A program made the position numbers and the translations under genes. The notes beneath the pieces are model-generated. The model saw nothing but the letters and a program-made list of their open reading frames with translations, was not told where the DNA came from and searched no databases. From the IMG/VR virus record IMGVR_UViG_2667527789_000014: DNA of 34,527 nt; one strand, given 5' to 3'. The DNA comes from a virus. Lineage: Duplodnaviria; Heunggongvirae; Uroviricota; Caudoviricetes. Positions within the stretch are counted from its first letter, which is position 1; each line of letters begins with the position of its first letter. Shown one piece after another: positions 5,703 to 30,563 of this stretch.

Positions 5703-6299
5703 TCAGCCTGCGTGATGATCCGGCGAAGGGGATTCAGGCCAGACAATATCCGGCGCGTTGCCCGTGTCTGTCCGGCTCAGTAATACCCGGTATTTTTTCC
5801 ACAGGGGAAGCAGGGCGCTTTCATCGTCGGTCGCCATATTTAAATCCACGGCATCCTGGAGGATGTTTATTGTATTTGTTGCTTCCTGTATTAATTCCCG
5901 TTTTTTATTCTCCGCCTCGCTCACCCGGTAAGCCTGTTCTGCTGCTTCATCCTTAACCCATGATGAACCATCCCACCGGCAGAACTCCCCGTCCGGTTTT
6001 ATTTCTGTCACGTTTTCCGGCAACGGTCCCGGCCCGGAAATGAATAAGGCAGCCCCCGAGTCCAGACGCCAGACGGTTTTACCCCGGTGATCTTCCATGA
6101 GGTGCCAGGTGTTTTCGTCCTCATCAAAGATAGCCACGTGTCCTTCAGGAATGTCAGGCGGGGCAATGTCCGTTGAGTGCGCAGGCAGTCCGGTATGCGG
6201 AGGGATCCAGGCATCGCCTTCGCCGATAAATTCATTTGTTCCGGCTGACAGGTTGTAGATTTTAATTGTCTGTGGGTGTTCGCTCATTTTAAAGGTCAT
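5703..6299 (-). CDS. tail fibre assembly protein (Tfa, P2 gpG-like)
   Basis: 198 aa. [47 protein letters not shown] and the C-terminal WPESP region are typical of the Tfa chaperone family. Stop overlaps the fibre gene. Confidence 0.7.
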
Positions 6300-8359
6300 T
6301 ATGCAAGCCTCACGATGTAGTTAAATGCGATGTTTTTGACGGTGTTTTCCGCATTACCGGTGGGGTTAATGGTCAGGCCGTGGCCATGTTGACCCAGTGC
6401 GAGCGTGTGGATGTGTTCGCCAATGCTTACCGAATGTGTGTGTTCCGAAACTCTGGCGATCAGGTTCGCCCCGGAGCCCGGCCCGTATGCGGTCCAGTCA
6501 CCGCTGCCTTCCGGTGACGCGATGGCGGTTCTTAATGATATTGTTGCGCTGAACGGCCCCGCGCTGTTTGTTGTTTTTGTGCCGTAATTGAAGGATGAGG
6601 TCGTTTTTGTGCCAAGGTCAGTATTTGAGACGCTCCCTCCGTGGGTGTGCGATTTGATGCCGTCCTGCTCCTGTGACAATACCGCACGACCGCTGGCAGG
6701 TTTTCCCTTGATTGTCCAGCCACGCATATCCGGGATGCGACCGTCCGGATAGGCTTTTGCCAGCAGGGGATATTGCGCTTTATCGAATGTCTGCCCCACC
6801 ATGATGGCGTAACCGGCAGGTGGGGTGTCTGACGGCCACGGCAGGGGAACACCTGCGGGTAACAACTCACTTGCAGGCAGTGCGCCGATGTCCTGTGGTG
6901 TGGGTTTGTTTTTGTCCGTGTAAGTGCGGTACCAGATGGCGCTTTTCCCTTTACTTAAAATAACTCCGGTGAACTGTGTGCGGTGAGGTCTGGTGATGTC
7001 TTCAGGGGATTCAATGCCTGTAGTGATCCTGATGAGCCCCCCGTTGATGTCGCCTGATACTTCGATAAGGCAGCCTCCAAGGCAGATATCGCCATAGCCC
7101 GTATCAGTGAGCACGCTGTGCTGTGACAGTGAAATATTGGCTTTGAATATCCAGAGTCCTGGTCTGAAGGCGCCACGTTCATTCAGCCATTCCACGAATT
7201 GTTCCGTTGTCCAGCGTTGCCCTGCTTTACCCACGTACCCGTCTTTTGCATAAACGCGTGGTGCGCCCACGTTGATCAGGAACAGCTCCTTGTTGGGGAT
7301 GTCCTCACCATTGCGGTTTTTCGCAAGCCGACCATCGGCGTTGTCCATGGCGATCTTTATAGCCTTTGGCGTGGCTGCCTGTGTCTCTGATGTACTGGTG
7401 GTGGCGCTGCTTAACTGTGTGAAGCCCTTTTCTTTCAGCGTTGCGTCCGGGTGGTTGCGTGATTTCTCGTGTTTTTTCAGGGCGTCCAGACTGCGGCGCT
7501 CTTCCGGGGTTCCTCTGGGGCGGAGGTCAGTCACGTTGCCGTCTTCATCAATTTCAGCGATGGCACAAAAATATTGCTGAATGCCGTCCCTCGGATACGT
7601 TTTCCGTAAACGCTCTTCCGTAACGTCCGGGTCGGCTGTTATGATTTCGTGCTCTGTCGCCCATTCACTGGTGAGCGTGCCGGTCCACCACACATTCAGC
7701 CAGATACGGGACGGGAAGGCGGGCGTGGTCATGGGGTGGTGAGTGCTCAGCTCTGCGCGTAGCCCCTCCACGTAACCCACCCCTTTGTTGACTGTCCAGG
7801 TTTCGCCTTTCTTAACCAGCCACCCGTCATCAAAAAAAGTTGCCTTCCCGTAGATATCGACGTTTTCGCGGCGCTGGCGTTCGTCCATGGATGCCAGGCG
7901 TGCCGTGAAGTCTATCTGCCAGGTCTGCGCCGGGGTGGTGATACCTGTGGCTTCCTTCGCACCGCTGTACTCCATGAGCATGGAACGGACCAGCACATTA
8001 CCTTCGTTACCGTTGTGGGTTCTGATTTTTTTCTGTGTGGGGGCGTGAACAATCATGGCCAGCGTGCTGGTTGCTTTGCTGACCAGTCCCACCCAGTTAA
8101 ATTCAAAATCACCCAGCTCTGCCCCCAGGGTGACCGAATAAACCACGGCATTCTCATTCACCACGCCGGTTTTGCCGGTAGCCTGGCGGTGCACAATCTG
8201 ATCTTCAGGCGGCAGGGTTTCGTCGGGGGATACCGGTGTTTCCGGGTTGAGGTCCGGGACGTTTGCAAAAATAAACTCATCCAGCACAACGGGGGTGCCT
8301 TCCGCCGCCTGCTGTGCCTTGAGCCGGATAAAGGCGCTGGTAATTACAGATTTCGCCAT
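6299..8359 (-). CDS. tail fibre protein (gpH-like)
   Basis: 686 aa with a conserved-looking N-terminal fibre attachment region ([19 protein letters not shown]...[11 protein letters not shown]) and a Gly/His-rich C-terminus ending [11 protein letters not shown]. Followed by the Tfa gene. Confidence 0.65.
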
Positions 8360-12619: not shown

Positions 12620-12820
12620 TCACCTTCCGTTAAATGCGATCGCTATACCTTCAGCGGTCTTGTTGGCGCGGGTACGGGCAAAATATTCATCCAGCCAGAT
12701 GGCCCGGGCGATGCTCTCTTCGTCGTCCGGCTCGCCGGGGAGGTAGTGACGCCGCAATGCCAGATACTGCTCAAGGGGATTGCGGCGGATGCTTTCGACC
12801 CGCGCGGTCAGTTTTTTAAC
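12620..12820 (-). CDS. -1 frame extension of the tail assembly chaperone (E-prime-like)
   Basis: The -1 frame is open from 12820 to the TGA at 12620-12622. Slippery heptamer A_AAA_AAC at 12811-12817 lies at the last codons of the chaperone ORF. A shift would add 63 residues and end 1 nt before the tape measure ATG. Confidence 0.5.
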   Translation of the reverse strand, partial: VKKLTARVESIRRNPLEQYLALRRHYLPGEPDDEESIARAIWLDEYFARTRANKTAEGIAIAFNGR

Positions 12821-13083
12821 TCAATCTCCAGTTTCGGGGAGTAAACCTCGTTAATCTTCTCGACGATCTGCATCTCACAGCCCGGATAACGCGCAATCAG
12901 GTCAGCCAGTGCGTCGCGGCTGGCAGGCGTCACGATGCGGTTAAGATAGGTGCTCATCGGCGCCACCTTGTTGGTCATCGTGATTTCGTTGATGAGGTTG
13001 TTAAATGCCGTTTTGTTCGGTTCAAAGCTCAGGGTTACGCCCGCAACGGACAGGATGATGGTGCCGGTGTTCTTCGTGGTCAT
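12808..13083 (-). CDS. tail assembly chaperone (P2 gpE-like, 91 aa)
   Basis: 91 aa, the same length as P2 gpE. Immediately upstream of the tape measure gene and ends in a slippery sequence. Confidence 0.6.
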   Translation of the reverse strand: MTTKNTGTIILSVAGVTLSFEPNKTAFNNLINEITMTNKVAPMSTYLNRIVTPASRDALADLIARYPGCEMQIVEKINEVYSPKLEIELKN

Positions 13084-13373
13084 TGCAGTTTCTCCGTGTT
13101 TCGTATGGTTTCCACCAGGCTGTTATGCCTGGCGGCGCATTCGGTGTAGCGGCTCGTGAGGGTTCGCAGTGCCGCATCAAAATCAGCGCCCGTCGGGCCT
13201 GCCAGTCTCGGCAGTGTCTTCGGGCATTCCGTCAGCTGGTTTTCCTGCCAGGGTACGTTCAGCGGCTTCAGCACGGGCGTTGAACAGCCGGACGTAATCA
13301 TCAGTAGCGCACACATTGCGGAATACCGGGCGGACGGTTTCCGTGTGAATAACGCGTTCAGTGTGAATTTCAT
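13080..13373 (-). CDS. o-spanin (Rz1-like outer membrane lipoprotein), start uncertain
   Basis: The ORF overlaps the Rz-like gene in another frame. The internal start at 13316 gives MCALLMITSGC, a short signal peptide with a lipobox-like Cys. Pro-rich mature part. Confidence 0.45.
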   Translation of the reverse strand: MKFTLNALFTRKPSARYSAMCALLMITSGCSTPVLKPLNVPWQENQLTECPKTLPRLAGPTGADFDAALRTLTSRYTECAARHNSLVETIRNTEKLQ

Positions 13374-13569
13374 TGCCCTTTAACGCCTCCAGCCGTTTTT
13401 CCAGTATGCGGGCGGACTGCTGCCCGGCTTCTGTCACCGCACGTCGCGTGGCTTCCATGGCTTCCTGTTCGGCAAGCGCCACCCTGGCGTCATGCCAGTC
13501 ATGGGCCAGCCAGCCTGCCCACATGGCGGCAAAGAGGATCACCAGGCAGCCCGCCAGCTGTTTCATCAT
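13183..13569 (-). CDS. i-spanin (Rz-like)
   Basis: 128 aa with an N-terminal transmembrane helix (LAGCLVILFAAMWAGWLA) and a charged, probably coiled-coil periplasmic region. Overlaps the endolysin stop. Confidence 0.55.
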   Translation of the reverse strand: MMKQLAGCLVILFAAMWAGWLAHDWHDARVALAEQEAMEATRRAVTEAGQQSARILEKRLEALKGNEIHTERVIHTETVRPVFRNVCATDDYVRLFNARAEAAERTLAGKPADGMPEDTAETGRPDGR

Positions 13570-13904
13570 TTCATCCCGTTGTGCTCAAGGCTGAAATGAT
13601 TGCCGTCCGCCCGACTGAAGCGCCCGCCCCATGTGCCGCCGATGGATTCCCAGTATTCCCCCAGCGGCCTGTAGGCGTCGGTGTCGGCCTGGTATTTGCC
13701 GTTAATGAACAGGTTGAAGTCCACCGCGAGGCGCAGCGTGTGAAGGCTGTTACGAATGCCTTTTCCGCTTTTCGCATTCAGTGCGGCCTGCTCCGGCGTG
13801 CGGTATGCCTCGCCGAAGGTCAGGCGATAGCCGTGCTCCTGTGCCCAGTGGATGAGATCGGCAATCATGACGGCAAACAGTTGTTGTTTTTCGCTCAGTT
13901 TCAT
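13566..13904 (-). CDS. endolysin, peptidase M15-like
   Basis: 112 aa. The H...D...H arrangement (NSLHTLRLAVDFNLF ... GNHFSLEH) resembles zinc-dependent M15 peptidases. Sits between the holin and spanins. Confidence 0.6.
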   Translation of the reverse strand: MKLSEKQQLFAVMIADLIHWAQEHGYRLTFGEAYRTPEQAALNAKSGKGIRNSLHTLRLAVDFNLFINGKYQADTDAYRPLGEYWESIGGTWGGRFSRADGNHFSLEHNGMK

Positions 13905-14655
13905 CAGTCATTCCTCTGTTCCGTCCCCGTAAGGCGCGCCTGTGCCACGCTGAAATAGTGGGCGTTCAGTTCAATACCCGTAAAACGGCAGCCCCGGCGA
14001 AGGGCGGCCACGCCCGTGGTGCCGGACCCCATAAACGGATCAAGGATCAGCCCTCCGGGTTCACACACGCGCACAAGCTCATCCATCAACGATTCCGGTT
14101 TACCTGTCGGGTGCTGTTTCTCCTGTGGGCGTGTGTGGTGCGTGATGCAGCCGTCGAACGGCCCTGAAGGGGATTTGCCCAGTGCGCCTTTGCTGCCCAG
14201 ACCACATATTCGCACTGGTGACGAAAATAACCGGTATGTGGTGTTCTTGAGCCCCGTCCCTTGTTCCATGCCACGATCCCCCGCCAGGTAAAACCGGCGG
14301 CCTGGAATGCGTCCGTCAGCGCGGGCAACTGCCGCCAGTCGGTGAAGACCAGGGCGTAACCACCGGGTCGTACCGTGCGCCATGCCTGTGTCATCCACAG
14401 ATGCGTCCAGTATTCCCATGAACGGGCGTCCATGTTCTCGCCTTCGAAGCCTTCAAAGCGGTGAAGATCTTCATCGTTGATGTATTTGGCGTGGCTGCCC
14501 TGGCATGTCCGCCCCGCCTTGTGTGTGGCACCTGAACTGTATGGCGGGTCTGTGATGAGCGCGTCCACACTGTTTTCCGGCAGCATCCGCAGAACGTCAT
14601 GCGCCTGCGCGTGATACAGGCTCAGGGAAGGCGAAATGTAAGGCTTATGGGTCAT
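13904..14655 (-). pseudogene. DNA N6-adenine/N4-cytosine methyltransferase (beta-class), interrupted by a frameshift
   Basis: Motif IV DPPY is in the frame of ORF 14086-14655. Motif I (DPFMGSGTT) and HPTGKPE are in a different frame, ORF 13904-14419, on the same strand. The two frames overlap over 14086-14419. The junction is probably near the GGG run at 14196-14198. Confidence 0.6.
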
Positions 14656-14950
14656 TTCTGCGTTCCTTCTGCTTCAGGTAGCGGTCTGCCAGACGGCAAA
14701 AGCATTCTTCAATAAAGGCGCTGCCCATAATGCCCAGCGCGCACGCCAGACCGACCACTACCAGCTCCGGCATGTCCGGAAATTTAAACAGCGGAATGGC
14801 GGCAACCGGTGCCACGGCAGAGCCCATAATCATTCGCCCGATAAGCAGACGGGCTGTGATGCGATCGCGGCTCACCATGAGACGCCCCAGCCCGATGGCA
14901 GCACCGATGATAATCAGTTTTGCCAGGAGTGAAGTCTGACCGTCCGGCAT
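14645..14950 (-). CDS. holin
   Basis: 101 aa with two to three hydrophobic helices and a charged C-terminus. First gene of the lysis cassette. Overlaps the methyltransferase start. Confidence 0.5.
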   Translation of the reverse strand: MPDGQTSLLAKLIIIGAAIGLGRLMVSRDRITARLLIGRMIMGSAVAPVAAIPLFKFPDMPELVVVGLACALGIMGSAFIEECFCRLADRYLKQKERRNDP

Positions 14951-24460: not shown

Positions 24461-24487
24461 CGCGCTTCGCTTGTCTGCTGCTTCGCC

Positions 24488-27997: not shown

Positions 27998-28401
27998 TCC
28001 CCGGCAGTCGCCGCCTGAAACGCCGCGCGGTACAGCACGAGAAGGCGCTGGTATTCACCGATAAAGTCTTCTGCGGTGTATATGCCTTTCACGGCCACGC
28101 TGTGGGTTGTCATTTCCAGAACAAGCGTCATCTCTGACGACGACCAGCTGATGGCGGTGCTGTCGGTTCCGTTGATGTGAAATAAACCAAAACCATCACC
28201 ATCGCCTTTCACGTCCACGCGGTAACGGCCGTCAACGGTGAAGGAGAAATCCCCGTATGTGGTGACGCGTCTGGCGACCTGTTTACAGGCGCGGCGGTAA
28301 TAGTCGTGCCAGTCGTTCAGGCGGGAAGCCAGCCGGGGATCCACTGCCCACATCCAGTTAAAAAAATCCTGAATATCTGAAAGTCCCTTAACGCTCTTCA
28401 T
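27985..28401 (-). CDS. hypothetical early protein (138 aa)
   Basis: Overlaps the replication gene start by 13 nt. No motif recognised. Confidence 0.45.
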   Translation of the reverse strand: MKSVKGLSDIQDFFNWMWAVDPRLASRLNDWHDYYRRACKQVARRVTTYGDFSFTVDGRYRVDVKGDGDGFGLFHINGTDSTAISWSSSEMTLVLEMTTHSVAVKGIYTAEDFIGEYQRLLVLYRAAFQAATAGECDA

Positions 28402-28469
28402 GAGAACCTCCGGTAACCGACGTGCGGAAGCCTCCCGCGCACGGGTGCGGGATGGCTTCAGGATGTTGT

Positions 28470-28697
28470 TTAGTGGTGGTGTTGCTGGTTGATAAGGTCC
28501 TGCAGTTCTGCCAGGTCTTCGGCCAGATAGCTGAAGACTGCCGCGTAATACCCGGCAGCGATACCATCGTTAAGTCGATGTAATGCGTTTGACTGCATGA
28601 TGAAGGTGACAGATGCAGCCCGATGGAGTCTGCGGTTAATTTCAGTGCGGATGTGAAGACGCTCAGCGCGGGCGCGCTGTTGTTTGCGGTTTGCCAT
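28470..28697 (-). CDS. hypothetical small basic protein (75 aa)
   Basis: Plausible AAGAGG 9 nt upstream. This ribosome-binding site lies inside one arm of the repeat element at 28700-29010. Confidence 0.4.
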   Translation of the reverse strand: MANRKQQRARAERLHIRTEINRRLHRAASVTFIMQSNALHRLNDGIAAGYYAAVFSYLAEDLAELQDLINQQHHH

Positions 28698-28699
28698 GG

Positions 28700-29010
28700 T
28701 GTTTGGCCTCTTGTAGTAAGTTCTGAAAACTCACCAACCCGAGGTTCCAAGCTCAGGGTGGCGAGACGTACAGGGTTGGAACTACCGGCTACAAGAGATC
28801 CCGGCCCGACCGAAGTCGGCCCCGTACGCCCCGCCATAATTCTGACGCGAAAAAGACGTGGCGATACAGTACGCACAAAAAAACCGCTGGCGCGGTTGTG
28901 CGCTCTTGTAGTCGGCGGGGTTCCAATCCCGGCACCCGTTTTATGAGGTGCGGGAAAACTGTAACCCGACCAGGCGAACGCTGGCAAGCGGTTTTTTTGT
29001 GTGTGCATGT
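28700..29010. promoter_or_regulatory. structured non-coding element inside the early operon (three copies of a 22-24 nt motif in alternating orientation, plus terminator hairpins)
   Basis: Motif CTCTTGTAG...GGTTCCAA occurs at 28709-28750 and 28904-28927 and inverted at 28774-28797. No credible ORF; the 206 aa ORF in the track here is low-complexity. Confidence 0.35.
28866..28894 (-). terminator. intrinsic terminator or attenuator within the early operon
   Basis: Minus strand reads CGCACA-ACCGC-gcca-GCGGT followed by TTTTTTT. It lies upstream of the replication-proximal genes. Confidence 0.45.
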
Positions 29011-29607: not shown

Positions 29608-29859
29608 TTATTCAGTCGGGTTCAGGGTGTAATCAATGGCGTTTTCAATACGGCGTTTAAGGTCCCGGTGGATCTCACCTGGTGTTACTGGTGCGCCCGG
29701 ACCGCTCAGCGTTGCCGTGAAGTCGTCGATTTCCTCCAGTAACAGATTGCGGAGTACGGCGATGTGGTGGCGTGCGTCTTTACCGGGTTTACGTGCGTTG
29801 GTGGTGTACTTGCTGATCATGGCCGCAGCTCTCCGTGGGCTTGTGTTTCTGATTTCCAT
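29608..29859 (-). CDS. hypothetical early protein (83 aa), paralog of 29020-29319
   Basis: See the paralog. EIDDFTATLSGPGAPVTPGEIHRDLKRRIENAIDYTLNP versus EIADFCATLEAPGEPETPEAIQQELLQRIDKVFDFFLNQ. Confidence 0.45.
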   Translation of the reverse strand: MEIRNTSPRRAAAMISKYTTNARKPGKDARHHIAVLRNLLLEEIDDFTATLSGPGAPVTPGEIHRDLKRRIENAIDYTLNPTE

Positions 29860-30083
29860 GCCCCTCTGATGGTCATTACTTCGCGAACGGTACTGGCAAT
29901 CGCGGTAATTTGTGTGCCGTCAGCCAGATGGATGTAGAGATAATCAGCGTCTGACGGGCACGGCGTGGTCGTTGTGATCAAATAACTTTCCACCATGAAC
30001 TCGCGGCCTGCGGCATCGGTGAAATGCGTCAGCAGGGTTCGTCTTGTGGCGGTAAATATGCTGTTCATCGTCCTGCCCCTCAC
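29817..30083 (-). CDS. hypothetical protein (start at 30083 or 30068)
   Basis: ORF packed between neighbours with a 4 nt overlap upstream. No motif recognised. Confidence 0.4.
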   Translation of the reverse strand: MRGRTMNSIFTATRRTLLTHFTDAAGREFMVESYLITTTTPCPSDADYLYIHLADGTQITAIASTVREVMTIRGAWKSETQAHGELRP

Positions 30084-30358
30084 GCTGAAAACTGGCCGGA
30101 CTGTGCCCGGAGTTCTGCCAGTTCGCGCTCGAGGCGCAGGTTTTTCATATAGAGTTCACTGATGGTCTGTTTTGCTGTCACCATTGCCATGCTTTGCATT
30201 TGCAGGGCCATGTAGGTGGCAAAATGCTTGTCTTTATCTATTTCTGATATTCTTTCATCCAGTACATTGGTTATTTCAGTCAGCGTTTTTTGCGTCAATT
30301 CAATATGCGCCGGGTCGGTAAATAGTTTGTTTATTTCTGTAGGTGTATTGGTGCTCAT
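30080..30358 (-). CDS. hypothetical protein (92 aa), low-GC, predicted coiled coil
   Basis: AT-rich compared with neighbouring phage genes. C-terminal LRLERELAELRA heptad-like segment. Confidence 0.4.
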   Translation of the reverse strand: MSTNTPTEINKLFTDPAHIELTQKTLTEITNVLDERISEIDKDKHFATYMALQMQSMAMVTAKQTISELYMKNLRLERELAELRAQSGQFSA

Positions 30359-30437
30359 AGCTGTTTCTCCGTTTCTGGATTGAGTGAAGCCCTCCGCAGA
30401 TGCGGATGGTTTTAATGTTTTCTGTCCGGTTGGTTAT

Positions 30438-30563
30438 TTATTTACGGCGTTCTTCGCCAGTAAATAAAGATTCGATATTTTTCAGCGCTTCGATAATTCG
30501 CATAATGCCAATCGCCATAAGCACGGAAATAATCAGAATCACCCATGAAAGAAATACGCTCAT
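30438..30563 (-). CDS. small hydrophobic peptide (41 aa), single predicted transmembrane helix
   Basis: MSVFLSWVILIISVLMAIGIMRIIEALKNIESLFTGEERRK. Its ATG overlaps the stop of the upstream gene (ATGA). Below the ORF-track size cutoff. Confidence 0.4.
   Translation of the reverse strand: MSVFLSWVILIISVLMAIGIMRIIEALKNIESLFTGEERRK

What the first reader, a model, noticed from the sequence alone, without database searches (positions are those of the whole stretch)
13904..14655. DNA methyltransferase embedded in the lysis cassette and split by a frameshift
A beta-class amino-methyltransferase, an accessory gene in a lysis cassette, has its DPPY motif and its DPFMGSGTT motif in different frames of the same strand. 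The likely site is a one-base loss at the GGG run at 14196-14198, where a fourth G would give an uninterrupted W-G-S-K-G junction. This could be a genuine pseudogene, meaning loss of an anti-restriction or epigenetic function, or an assembly error.
Basis: seen in the sequence. Interest (0 to 1): 0.45.

Follow-up and report, generated by a model that had tools for sequence, protein, structure and literature searches.

The report
Frameshifted prophage DNA methyltransferase pseudogene
A small DNA-methylating enzyme gene sitting between the holin and endolysin genes of an E. coli P2-family prophage has lost one G and is dead; this is an ordinary, recent loss of a dispensable accessory gene that related prophages have lost repeatedly in other ways.

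Summary
The minus-strand gene at 13904-14655 is a beta-class N6_N4 (PF01555) DNA methyltransferase. It lies between a holin and an M15 endolysin in the late operon of an E. coli P2-family prophage. It lacks one G of a GGGG run (window 14196-14198); intact 250-aa orthologues read VVW-GSKG there.

The deletion is most likely real rather than an assembly error. A separate public assembly (GCA_053185565.1) carries the same deletion and differs from the window by one SNP in 20.5 kb. The exact 189-aa frameshift product is on three contigs. It is also the only uncompensated indel in about 25 kb of coding sequence compared with a sibling prophage.

The restored protein matches exactly an intact allele seen on 77 contigs, so the loss is recent. 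Neither leftover ORF keeps residues 154-190, which include the conserved HPTGKP block, so no activity is expected.

Other public assemblies carry at least five further independent lesions in this gene, four small indels and one nonsense codon. Sibling prophage copies have deleted the gene almost entirely.

This is an ordinary pseudogene of a dispensable accessory gene. Programmed frameshifting, phase variation and a working split enzyme are not supported.

The parts
13904..14655 (-). DNA methyltransferase pseudogene (beta-class, PF01555 N6_N4_Mtase). It is 752 nt here and 753 nt (250 aa) in intact orthologues.
   Evidence: It is 97.8-99.2% identical to annotated intact genes (WP_000149053.1, WP_063087962.1, WP_338899513.1) in 12 complete E. 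coli genomes.
14196..14198 (-). Lesion site: a GGG run on the coding strand (CCC on +) where intact alleles have GGGG. The one-base deletion falls after codon 153.
   Evidence: Alignment A1; coordinates checked.
14086..14655 (-). ORF A, 189 aa: native residues 1-153 (DPPY motif IV at 14539-14550) followed by 36 out-of-frame residues. Its stop TGA is at 14086-14088.
   Evidence: The exact product P0001 is on three public contigs.
13904..14086 (-). Residual native-frame ORF of 60 aa starting at Met191 (MDELV...), containing motif I DPFMGSGTT (14015-14041). Its ATG (14084-14086) overlaps the ORF A stop as TGATG.
   Evidence: It is called as a separate gene in GCA_053185565.1.
14096..14113 (-). 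Conserved HPTGKP block in the native frame. It lies in the stretch (residues 154-190) that neither leftover ORF translates correctly.
   Evidence: It aligns with HPTQKP of CcrM (6pbd); coordinates.
14645..14950 (-). Holin. Its 3' end overlaps the MTase start by 11 nt, and an AAGGA Shine-Dalgarno-like sequence for the MTase lies inside it.
   Evidence: PF04550 at 1.2e-19; phrog_175; sequence.
13566..13904 (-). M15 endolysin. Its ATG overlaps the MTase stop by one base (TGATG), and a GAGGA lies 9 nt upstream.
   Evidence: PF13539; phrog_1768; sequence.
13080..13569 (-). Spanin pair: Rz-like 13183..13569 and overlapping Rz1/LysC-like 13080..13373.
   Evidence: phrog_1152 at 5.5e-31 and phrog_456/PF23793, the latter two weak.

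Best explanation
This is a genuine, recently arisen null allele of an accessory phage DNA methyltransferase.

The intact gene encodes a 250-aa beta-class N6_N4 MTase. From its DPPY motif IV it is most likely an N6-adenine enzyme. It is wired into the late sheath-to-tape-measure transcription unit of an E. coli P2-family prophage with an HP1-like tail module. It sits between holin and endolysin and is coupled to both by overlapping stop and start codons.

Its inferred job is to methylate progeny phage DNA late in infection, so that the DNA survives restriction in the next host. This function is inferred, not shown.

In this prophage, slippage at a GGGG run removed one G after codon 153. Ribosomes then read 36 wrong residues and stop. 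Residues 154-190, which span the region between the catalytic half and motif I and include the conserved HPTGKP block, are not made in any product. The enzyme should therefore be inactive (inferred).

By chance, the new stop overlaps the ATG of native Met191 (TGATG). Reinitiation could therefore carry ribosomes on to the endolysin start, and the endolysin also has its own Shine-Dalgarno sequence. Lysis is probably unaffected (inferred).

The gene is dispensable, because sibling prophages lack it or carry other knock-outs. The loss is best read as decay of a non-essential accessory gene in a lysogen.
For: Lesion and family:
- Searches confirm the lesion and the family assignment.

Real rather than artefact:
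- GCA_053185565.1 (contig JBRSUB010000011.1) carries the same deletion. It is identical to window 4086-24655 except for one SNP at 24485.
- The exact 189-aa product is on three contigs from NCBI and Logan.
- Compared with the strain 48 prophage, the MTase deletion is the only uncompensated indel between window 2776 and 28196.
- All other late genes have the same lengths as in the annotated relatives.

Recent:
- The restored protein is identical to P0031, an intact allele on 77 contigs.
- The four substitutions that separate the window from five intact orthologues are all synonymous third-position changes in the ancestral frame, three of them downstream of the shift.
- pN/pS of the restored allele against intact alleles is 0.12-0.31.

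Dispensable and repeatedly lost (for the point lesions; for the deletion):
- +G in the G5 run at 374-378 (SRR3240980, SRR35986947).
- W124* from TGG>TAG (DRR103009).
- Loss of one T in the T4 run at 429-432 (SRR36032692).
- Loss of one G in the G4 run at 401-404, on the window's own allele background (ERR10177201).
- A complex +1 change at 358-359 (SRR26321796).
- A deletion of about 700 nt that leaves only the first ~52 nt of the gene, in second prophage copies of NZ_CP148318.1 and NZ_CP067426.1.

Operon context:
- No minus-strand terminator-like site lies between 12500 and 17500.
- The stop/start overlaps are shown.
Against: - No reads were available, so a reproducible sequencing error at this site cannot be formally excluded.
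- The three contigs with the exact product could be re-assemblies of one isolate's reads. The tool collapsed them and showed only one sample.
- Loss of activity, late expression and the anti-restriction role are inferred from sequence and from knowledge of related enzymes. None was measured.
- The target sequence of the enzyme is unknown.
- The other lesions were found by looking up the 60-aa residual ORF. That look-up only detects breaks between roughly codons 89 and 190, and it gives no denominator. Whether this gene is lost more often than its neighbours was not tested.
Confidence: 0.88

Rival explanations
1. Sequencing or assembly error: the isolate really has GGGG and the gene is intact.
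For: - The lesion is a single-base change in a homopolymer, the classic error type.
- One Logan contig (L040, DRR275267) shows that error-prone data for this locus exist: it has six one-base deletions in 5.2 kb.
Against: - The run is only four bases long.
- The same deletion is in a separate NCBI assembly that differs from the window by one SNP, and on three contigs in all.
- The window has no other uncompensated indel in about 25 kb of coding sequence, so it does not come from an error-prone assembly.
Confidence: 0.08
2. Programmed ribosomal frameshift or transcriptional slippage restores the full-length enzyme from the shifted gene.
For: Programmed frameshifting does occur nearby in such phages, in the tail chaperone pair at 12808..13083 and 12620..12757.
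Against: - Every orthologue examined is a single uninterrupted frame, so the shift is not conserved.
- The site GTC-TGG-GCA is not an X_XXY_YYZ slippery heptamer. A -1 slip of tRNA-Trp from UGG to CUG would not re-pair (read from the sequence).
- A three-base run is far too short for polymerase slippage.
Confidence: 0.01
3. Phase-variable on/off switch: the G run is a contingency tract that toggles the methyltransferase.
For: The Bordetella phage homologue bpm has a G8, G9 or G10 tract that differs among three sibling genomes and shifts the frame. Tract-mediated switching is therefore conceivable in this family.
Against: - The E. coli tract is G4 or G3, well below the length at which slippage is frequent.
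- The off allele is confined to three near-identical contigs, against hundreds with G4.
- Other lesions in the gene sit at different sites and include a nonsense codon and a deletion of about 700 nt. That is the pattern of irreversible decay, not switching.
Confidence: 0.01
4. The two fragments (189 aa and 60 aa) reassemble into a working split methyltransferase.
For: - The ORF A stop overlaps the ATG of native Met191 (TGATG), so both pieces could be translated.
- The catalytic DPPY half and the FxGxG half end up on separate polypeptides.
Against: Native residues 154-190 are absent from both fragments. These include the HPTGKP block conserved through to CcrM, and the stretch between the conserved EYVVW block and motif I, where beta-class enzymes carry their target-recognition region. 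ORF A also carries 36 unrelated residues.
Confidence: 0.02

Closest known systems
Intact E. coli prophage DNA-methyltransferase (WP_000149053.1; exact parental allele P0031 / UPI000936BADA)
   Same: - It is the same gene in the same holin-MTase-endolysin position in sibling P2-family prophages, at 97.8-99.2% nucleotide identity.
- The restored window protein is 100% identical to P0031.
   Different: The window allele lacks one G and is split into a 189-aa ORF and a 60-aa ORF.
N4/N6 methylases inside the tail clusters of P2-like Burkholderia phages KS5 (gene 20, with Com) and KL3 (gene 28) (Lynch et al. 2010, PMC3091744)
   Same: They are PF01555 MTases carried as accessory genes inside the late structural operons of P2-like phages, and are proposed to protect phage DNA from host restriction. 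P2 itself has none.
   Different: - They sit at other insertion points, between sheath and fibre assembly or between V and S, rather than between holin and endolysin.
- KS5 pairs its gene with a Com-like translational regulator, which the window lacks.
- Those genes are intact.
Escherichia phage Chuche MTase (73% identity) and Stenotrophomonas phage Smp131 orf4 (48%)
   Same: They are the closest homologues in deposited phage genomes and are also in P2-like phages.
   Different: They are located near the integrase or the portal end, and are preceded by a Com-like or 'translational regulator' gene rather than embedded in the lysis cassette.
Bordetella phage BPP-1 Bpm adenine methyltransferase (51% identity)
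   Same: It belongs to the same MTase family. It is also frameshifted in the sibling genomes BIP-1 and BMP-1.
   Different: It is a podovirus gene next to the repressor. The frameshifts there are in a long G8-G10 tract, whereas here the run is G4.
Solved beta-class MTases CcrM (6pbd) and the H. pylori 'DpnA' enzyme (5hek/5hfj)
   Same: - They share the motif order (DPPY first, FxGxG last) and the HPTxKP block.
- 5hek aligns over residues 11-243.
   Different: - The relationship is distant: E-values of about 1e-21, below the NCBIfam equivalog cut-offs.
- CcrM has an extra C-terminal domain.
- No specificity can be transferred.

Membership tests
Beta-class N6-adenine/N4-cytosine DNA methyltransferase (Pfam PF01555 N6_N4_Mtase) | A profile match above the curated threshold across the whole domain. 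| tested here: met
   The restored protein scores 98.4 bits against a cut-off of 26.7, covering profile positions 1-220 of 221. The two window ORFs each match half of the profile: 39.6 bits over positions 1-112 and 64 bits over positions 154-220.
Beta-class N6-adenine/N4-cytosine DNA methyltransferase (Pfam PF01555 N6_N4_Mtase) | Circularly permuted motif order: catalytic motif IV (D/S-P-P-Y/F) lies N-terminal to AdoMet motif I (FxGxG). | tested here: met
   DPPY is at residues 36-39 and DPFMGSGTT at residues 206-214 of the restored protein.
Beta-class N6-adenine/N4-cytosine DNA methyltransferase (Pfam PF01555 N6_N4_Mtase) | Demonstrated AdoMet-dependent DNA methylation at a defined target. 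| not testable with these tools
   It needs methylome sequencing or enzymology. Adenine specificity is only inferred from DPPY as opposed to SPPY/F.
CcrM / YhdJ-type equivalogs (NCBIfam NF050803, NF008572) and PRK13699 | A score above the curated equivalog or subfamily cut-off. | tested here: not met
   The scores are 86 against 830, 60.7 against 292 and 105 against 244 bits. It is a relative, not a member.
Frameshift pseudogene (genuine null allele) | The reading frame is broken relative to intact orthologues by a defined lesion. | tested here: met
   There is a single one-base gap against four or five intact orthologues.
Frameshift pseudogene (genuine null allele) | The lesion is reproducible in independent sequence data. 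| tested here: met
   The same deletion is in GCA_053185565.1, which differs from the window by one SNP in 20,570 nt, and the exact product is on three contigs. The independence of the underlying isolates could not be shown.
Frameshift pseudogene (genuine null allele) | Loss of the encoded activity. | not testable with these tools
   It is inferred from the absence of residues 154-190, including HPTGKP, in both leftover ORFs.
Programmed ribosomal frameshift gene | The frameshift is conserved in orthologues and a slippery site is present. | tested here: not met
   Orthologues are single-frame. There is no X_XXY_YYZ heptamer at GTC-TGG-GCA.
Phase-variable methyltransferase (phasevarion) | A long simple-sequence tract, with tract-length polymorphism among close relatives. 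| tested here: not met
   The tract is only G4 or G3. No tandem repeat lies at the site. The G3 allele is limited to three near-identical contigs.
Phage lysis cassette (holin - endolysin - spanins) | Adjacent, co-oriented holin, endolysin and Rz/Rz1 genes. | tested here: met
   The matches are PF04550/phrog_175, PF13539/phrog_1768, phrog_1152 and phrog_456/PF23793. Sibling prophages have the holin followed 50 nt later by the endolysin, with no MTase.

The most novel reading that the evidence does not exclude
The repeated independent knock-outs of this one gene may not be neutral decay. There are at least six point lesions including the window's, plus a deletion of about 700 nt, while flanking late genes stay intact. 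This could reflect selection against the methyltransferase in some E. coli hosts. One possible cause is that leaky expression marks the chromosome and provokes a methylation-dependent (Type IV, Mrr/McrBC-like) restriction system. If so, the window shows one outcome of a host-prophage epigenetic conflict.
Probability: 0.1. Interest if true: 0.45.

Novelty: already known. Interest (0 to 1): 0.12.

Why it matters
The practical consequences are modest. For annotation, 13904-14655 should be one pseudogene and not two 'methyltransferase' genes. GCA_053185565.1 currently has it called as a 189-aa gene and a 60-aa gene.

For biology, virions from this prophage would presumably carry DNA without this enzyme's mark. 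They would then be more exposed to any cognate restriction system in a new host. Methylome studies of the strain should not expect a motif from this gene.

The wider pattern illustrates how dispensable a methyltransferase carried in a phage late operon is to a resident prophage. In this lineage the gene is intact in most copies, broken in several different ways in others, and deleted in some. This was already the general expectation for such accessory genes.

Tried and rejected
- **Phage record search by DNA.** A megablast of the region against 50,697 phage records found nothing. The lineage is known only as prophages, apart from one IMG/VR contig with the intact allele.
- **Sample identities.** I tried twice to see which samples carry the exact 189-aa product. 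The tool collapses similar places, so only GCA_053185565.1 was shown.
- **Context in other species.** The species-representative genome scan gave only relatives of about 50% identity in very diverse phyla. None is in a comparable lysis context; one Mycoavidus locus has a holin-like match about 900 nt upstream.
- **Com regulator.** I looked for a Com-like translational regulator, as found next to the homologues in Chuche, Smp131 and KS5. There is no credible match in the window.
- **Second methyltransferase.** I looked in the early region of the window for a second enzyme that could compensate. None was found among the ORFs tested.
- **Target sequence.** Two literature searches found no paper that assigns a recognition sequence to this enzyme.
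- **Rejected readings.** Programmed frameshifting, phase variation and a functional split enzyme were considered and rejected; the reasons are given under the rival explanations.
- **Not attempted.** I did not predict a structure, because sequence alignment to solved relatives already places the break. I did not test whether this gene is lost more often than its neighbours, because no tool gives an unbiased lesion count per gene.

Full report
**Observation**

The region 13904-14655 holds two overlapping minus-strand ORFs in different frames. ORF A (14086..14655, 189 aa) carries DPPY. ORF B (13904..14419, 171 aa) carries DPFMGSGTT. ORF A matches positions 1-112 of Pfam PF01555 (N6_N4_Mtase) and ORF B matches positions 154-220.

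Twelve of 5,426 complete E. coli genomes carry the same region at 97.8-99.2% identity, each one base longer than the window. In the four I opened, it is a single annotated 753-nt gene: WP_000149053.1, WP_338899513.1 and WP_063087962.1. Alignment shows one gap, a missing G in a GGGG run at gene positions 458-461. On the + strand this is CCC at 14196-14198.

Restoring the G gives ...EYVVW-GSKGALGK... and a 250-aa protein that matches PF01555 end to end at 98.4 bits.

**Context**

The window is essentially one complete P2-family prophage. Its parts are:
- a P2-type capsid, scaffold, terminase and portal;
- Ogr, Cox, the gpA replication protein and an integrase;
- an HP1-like tail module (PF10772, PF25759, DUF2586 sheath).

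In the window it is inserted next to chpS, as in the JNEC-KY202 relative.

On the minus strand the gene order is sheath, tube, holin (14645..14950), MTase, M15 endolysin (13566..13904), Rz-like spanin, Rz1/LysC-like ORF, tail chaperone and tape measure. No minus-strand terminator-like site lies between 12500 and 17500.

The holin overlaps the MTase start by 11 nt, and the MTase stop overlaps the endolysin ATG by one base (TGATG).

It is dispensable for that cassette. Second copies of the same prophage type in NZ_CP148318.1 and NZ_CP067426.1 have the holin followed 50 nt later by the endolysin. They keep only the first ~52 nt of the MTase ORF, which is the footprint of a deletion of about 700 nt.

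**Real mutation or artefact**

Three lines of evidence favour a real mutation.
1. A separate NCBI assembly (GCA_053185565.1, contig JBRSUB010000011.1) carries the same deletion. It is identical to window 4086-24655 except for one SNP at 24485. The exact 189-aa frameshift product is recorded on three contigs from NCBI and Logan.
2. Compared with the strain 48 prophage, the MTase deletion is the only uncompensated indel between window 2776 and 28196. Every other late gene has the same length as in annotated relatives. The window therefore does not come from an assembly prone to homopolymer errors.
3. The run is only four bases long.

I could not see reads. I also could not show that the three contigs come from different isolates. 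A small residual chance of artefact remains, about 8%.

**Age of the lesion**

The restored protein is identical to an intact allele (P0031) seen on 77 contigs. Four substitutions separate the window from five intact orthologues. All four are synonymous third-position changes in the ancestral frame, and three lie downstream of the shift.

ERR10177201 shares those substitutions on an allele that still has GGGG at 458. They therefore belong to the allele background and predate the deletion. pN/pS of the restored allele against intact alleles is 0.12-0.31. The gene was under purifying selection until recently, and no decay has accumulated since the break.

**Consequence (inferred)**

ORF A keeps native residues 1-153, which include motif IV (DPPY) and run through the conserved EYVVW block. 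It then reads 36 wrong residues.

The only native-frame ORF downstream starts at Met191 and is 60 aa long (motif I onward). Residues 154-190 are missing from both products. They span the stretch where beta-class enzymes carry their target-recognition region. They also include HPTGKP, which aligns with HPTQKP of CcrM. No activity is expected.

The ORF A stop overlaps the Met191 ATG (TGATG), and the endolysin has its own GAGGA. Polarity on lysis is therefore probably small.

**What the intact enzyme is**

It is a small beta-class MTase. DPPY (rather than SPPY/F) suggests N6-adenine, which is my inference from established motif knowledge.

Its nearest relatives in deposited phage genomes are:
- Escherichia phage Chuche, 73% identity;
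- Bordetella BPP-1 Bpm, 51%;
- Smp131 orf4, 48%.

In Chuche and Smp131 the gene sits elsewhere in the genome and follows a Com-like regulator. The window has no Com homologue.

The nearest solved structures are CcrM (6pbd), 9c3u/8urk and the H. pylori DpnA-like enzyme 5hek. The protein falls below every NCBIfam equivalog cut-off, so no recognition sequence can be transferred.

PF01555 methylases inside the tail clusters of P2-like phages are already described for Burkholderia phages KS5 and KL3. There they are proposed to protect phage DNA from restriction (PMC3091744). Late expression and an anti-restriction role here are inferences by analogy.

**Recurrent loss**

Looking up the 60-aa residual ORF found 16 contigs. 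Aligning them shows distinct lesions:
- +G in the G5 run at 374-378 (SRR3240980 and four similar places; SRR35986947);
- TGG>TAG, W124* (DRR103009 and one similar place), which lies in a CCTGG Dcm site, a classic deamination hotspot (own knowledge);
- loss of one T in the T4 run at 429-432 (SRR36032692);
- loss of one G in the G4 run at 401-404, on the window's own allele background (ERR10177201);
- a complex +1 change at 358-359 (SRR26321796).

In the contigs with about 4.4-5.2 kb of sequence held, the MTase lesion is the only indel. DRR103009, which carries the nonsense codon, has no indel at all. SRR26321796 is only a 1,060-nt contig, so it says nothing about flanking genes. DRR275267 has six one-base deletions in 5.2 kb, and I discounted it as error-prone.

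With the window's lesion and the sibling deletion, the gene has been lost at least seven times. Intact alleles are far more common: 414 and 77 contigs for just two of them. The look-up only detects breaks between about codons 89 and 190, and it provides no denominator. I therefore cannot say whether this gene is lost more often than its neighbours. Neutral decay of a dispensable gene is the simplest reading. Selected loss is possible but untested.

**Rivals rejected**

- Programmed frameshifting: orthologues are single-frame, and GTC-TGG-GCA is not slippery.
- Phase variation: the tract is G4 or G3 with no repeat array, and the other lesions are irreversible.
- A split functional enzyme: residues 154-190 are absent from both pieces.

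**Verdict**

The finding is real and correctly interpreted, but ordinary. It is a recent single-base-deletion pseudogene of a known, annotated, dispensable prophage methyltransferase.

Noticed in passing
L047-L049 (Bordetella phages BMP-1 AY526908.1, BIP-1 AY526909.1, BPP-1 AY029185.2; bpm at about 29758-30513 of the BPP-1 record): The bpm homologue (51% identity to the E. coli MTase) has a poly-G tract at the PGG codons just before motif I. The tract is G8 in BPP-1 (intact, 251 aa), G9 in BIP-1 and G10 in BMP-1. Both siblings are therefore frameshifted. This could be a genuine contingency tract or an old sequencing error.
   Followed up: partly
L050 (NZ_CP148318.1 4472126-4472820) and L051 (NZ_CP067426.1 4814908-4815602): Second copies of the same prophage type have the holin followed 50 nt later by the endolysin, with no MTase. 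They retain the first ~52 nt of the MTase ORF, which indicates a deletion of about 700 nt rather than an ancestral absence.
   Followed up: yes
L037-L045 (Logan and NCBI contigs; MTase gene positions 358-432): At least five further independent inactivating lesions of the same MTase are present in public E. coli assemblies. One is a W124* nonsense change at a CCTGG Dcm site.
   Followed up: yes
window 28754-28841 (-) and 28877-28951 (-): There are Rfam matches to C4 antisense RNA (RF01695, 83 bits) and isrK (RF01394, 69 bits). This is a P1/P7-type C4 immunity RNA module in the early region of a P2-family prophage. Relatives annotate 'ash family' and 'derepression' proteins there. Both RNAs lie inside the mechanical ORF 28388..29008, which has no Pfam hit.
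   Followed up: no
window about 941-1350 and 1709-2072: Two tandem, mutually similar Hok/Gef-type toxin modules lie at the left end of the prophage.
   Followed up: no
window 6299-8359 (-): The tail fibre gene is one uninterrupted 686-aa ORF in the window and in GCA_053185565.1. It is annotated as two partial pseudogenes with a gap of about 500 nt in the JNEC-KY202 and strain 48 relatives. This is probably an annotation issue or a different fibre allele.
   Followed up: no
window 12620-13083 (-): A tail assembly chaperone (PF10963, 12808..13083) is followed by a small DUF6890 ORF (12620..12757). This is the usual chaperone pair linked by programmed frameshifting upstream of the tape measure gene. 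I did not look for the slippery site.
   Followed up: no
window 14084-14088 (-) and 13904-13906 (-): There are two TGATG stop/start overlaps. The frameshifted ORF A stop overlaps the native Met191 ATG. The native MTase stop overlaps the endolysin ATG. All -1 lesions in the gene end at the same TGA, so they may preserve translational coupling to the endolysin.
   Followed up: partly
window 24485: This is the only difference (G here, T in GCA_053185565.1) across 20,570 nt shared with that assembly. It is intergenic, just downstream of ogr.
   Followed up: partly
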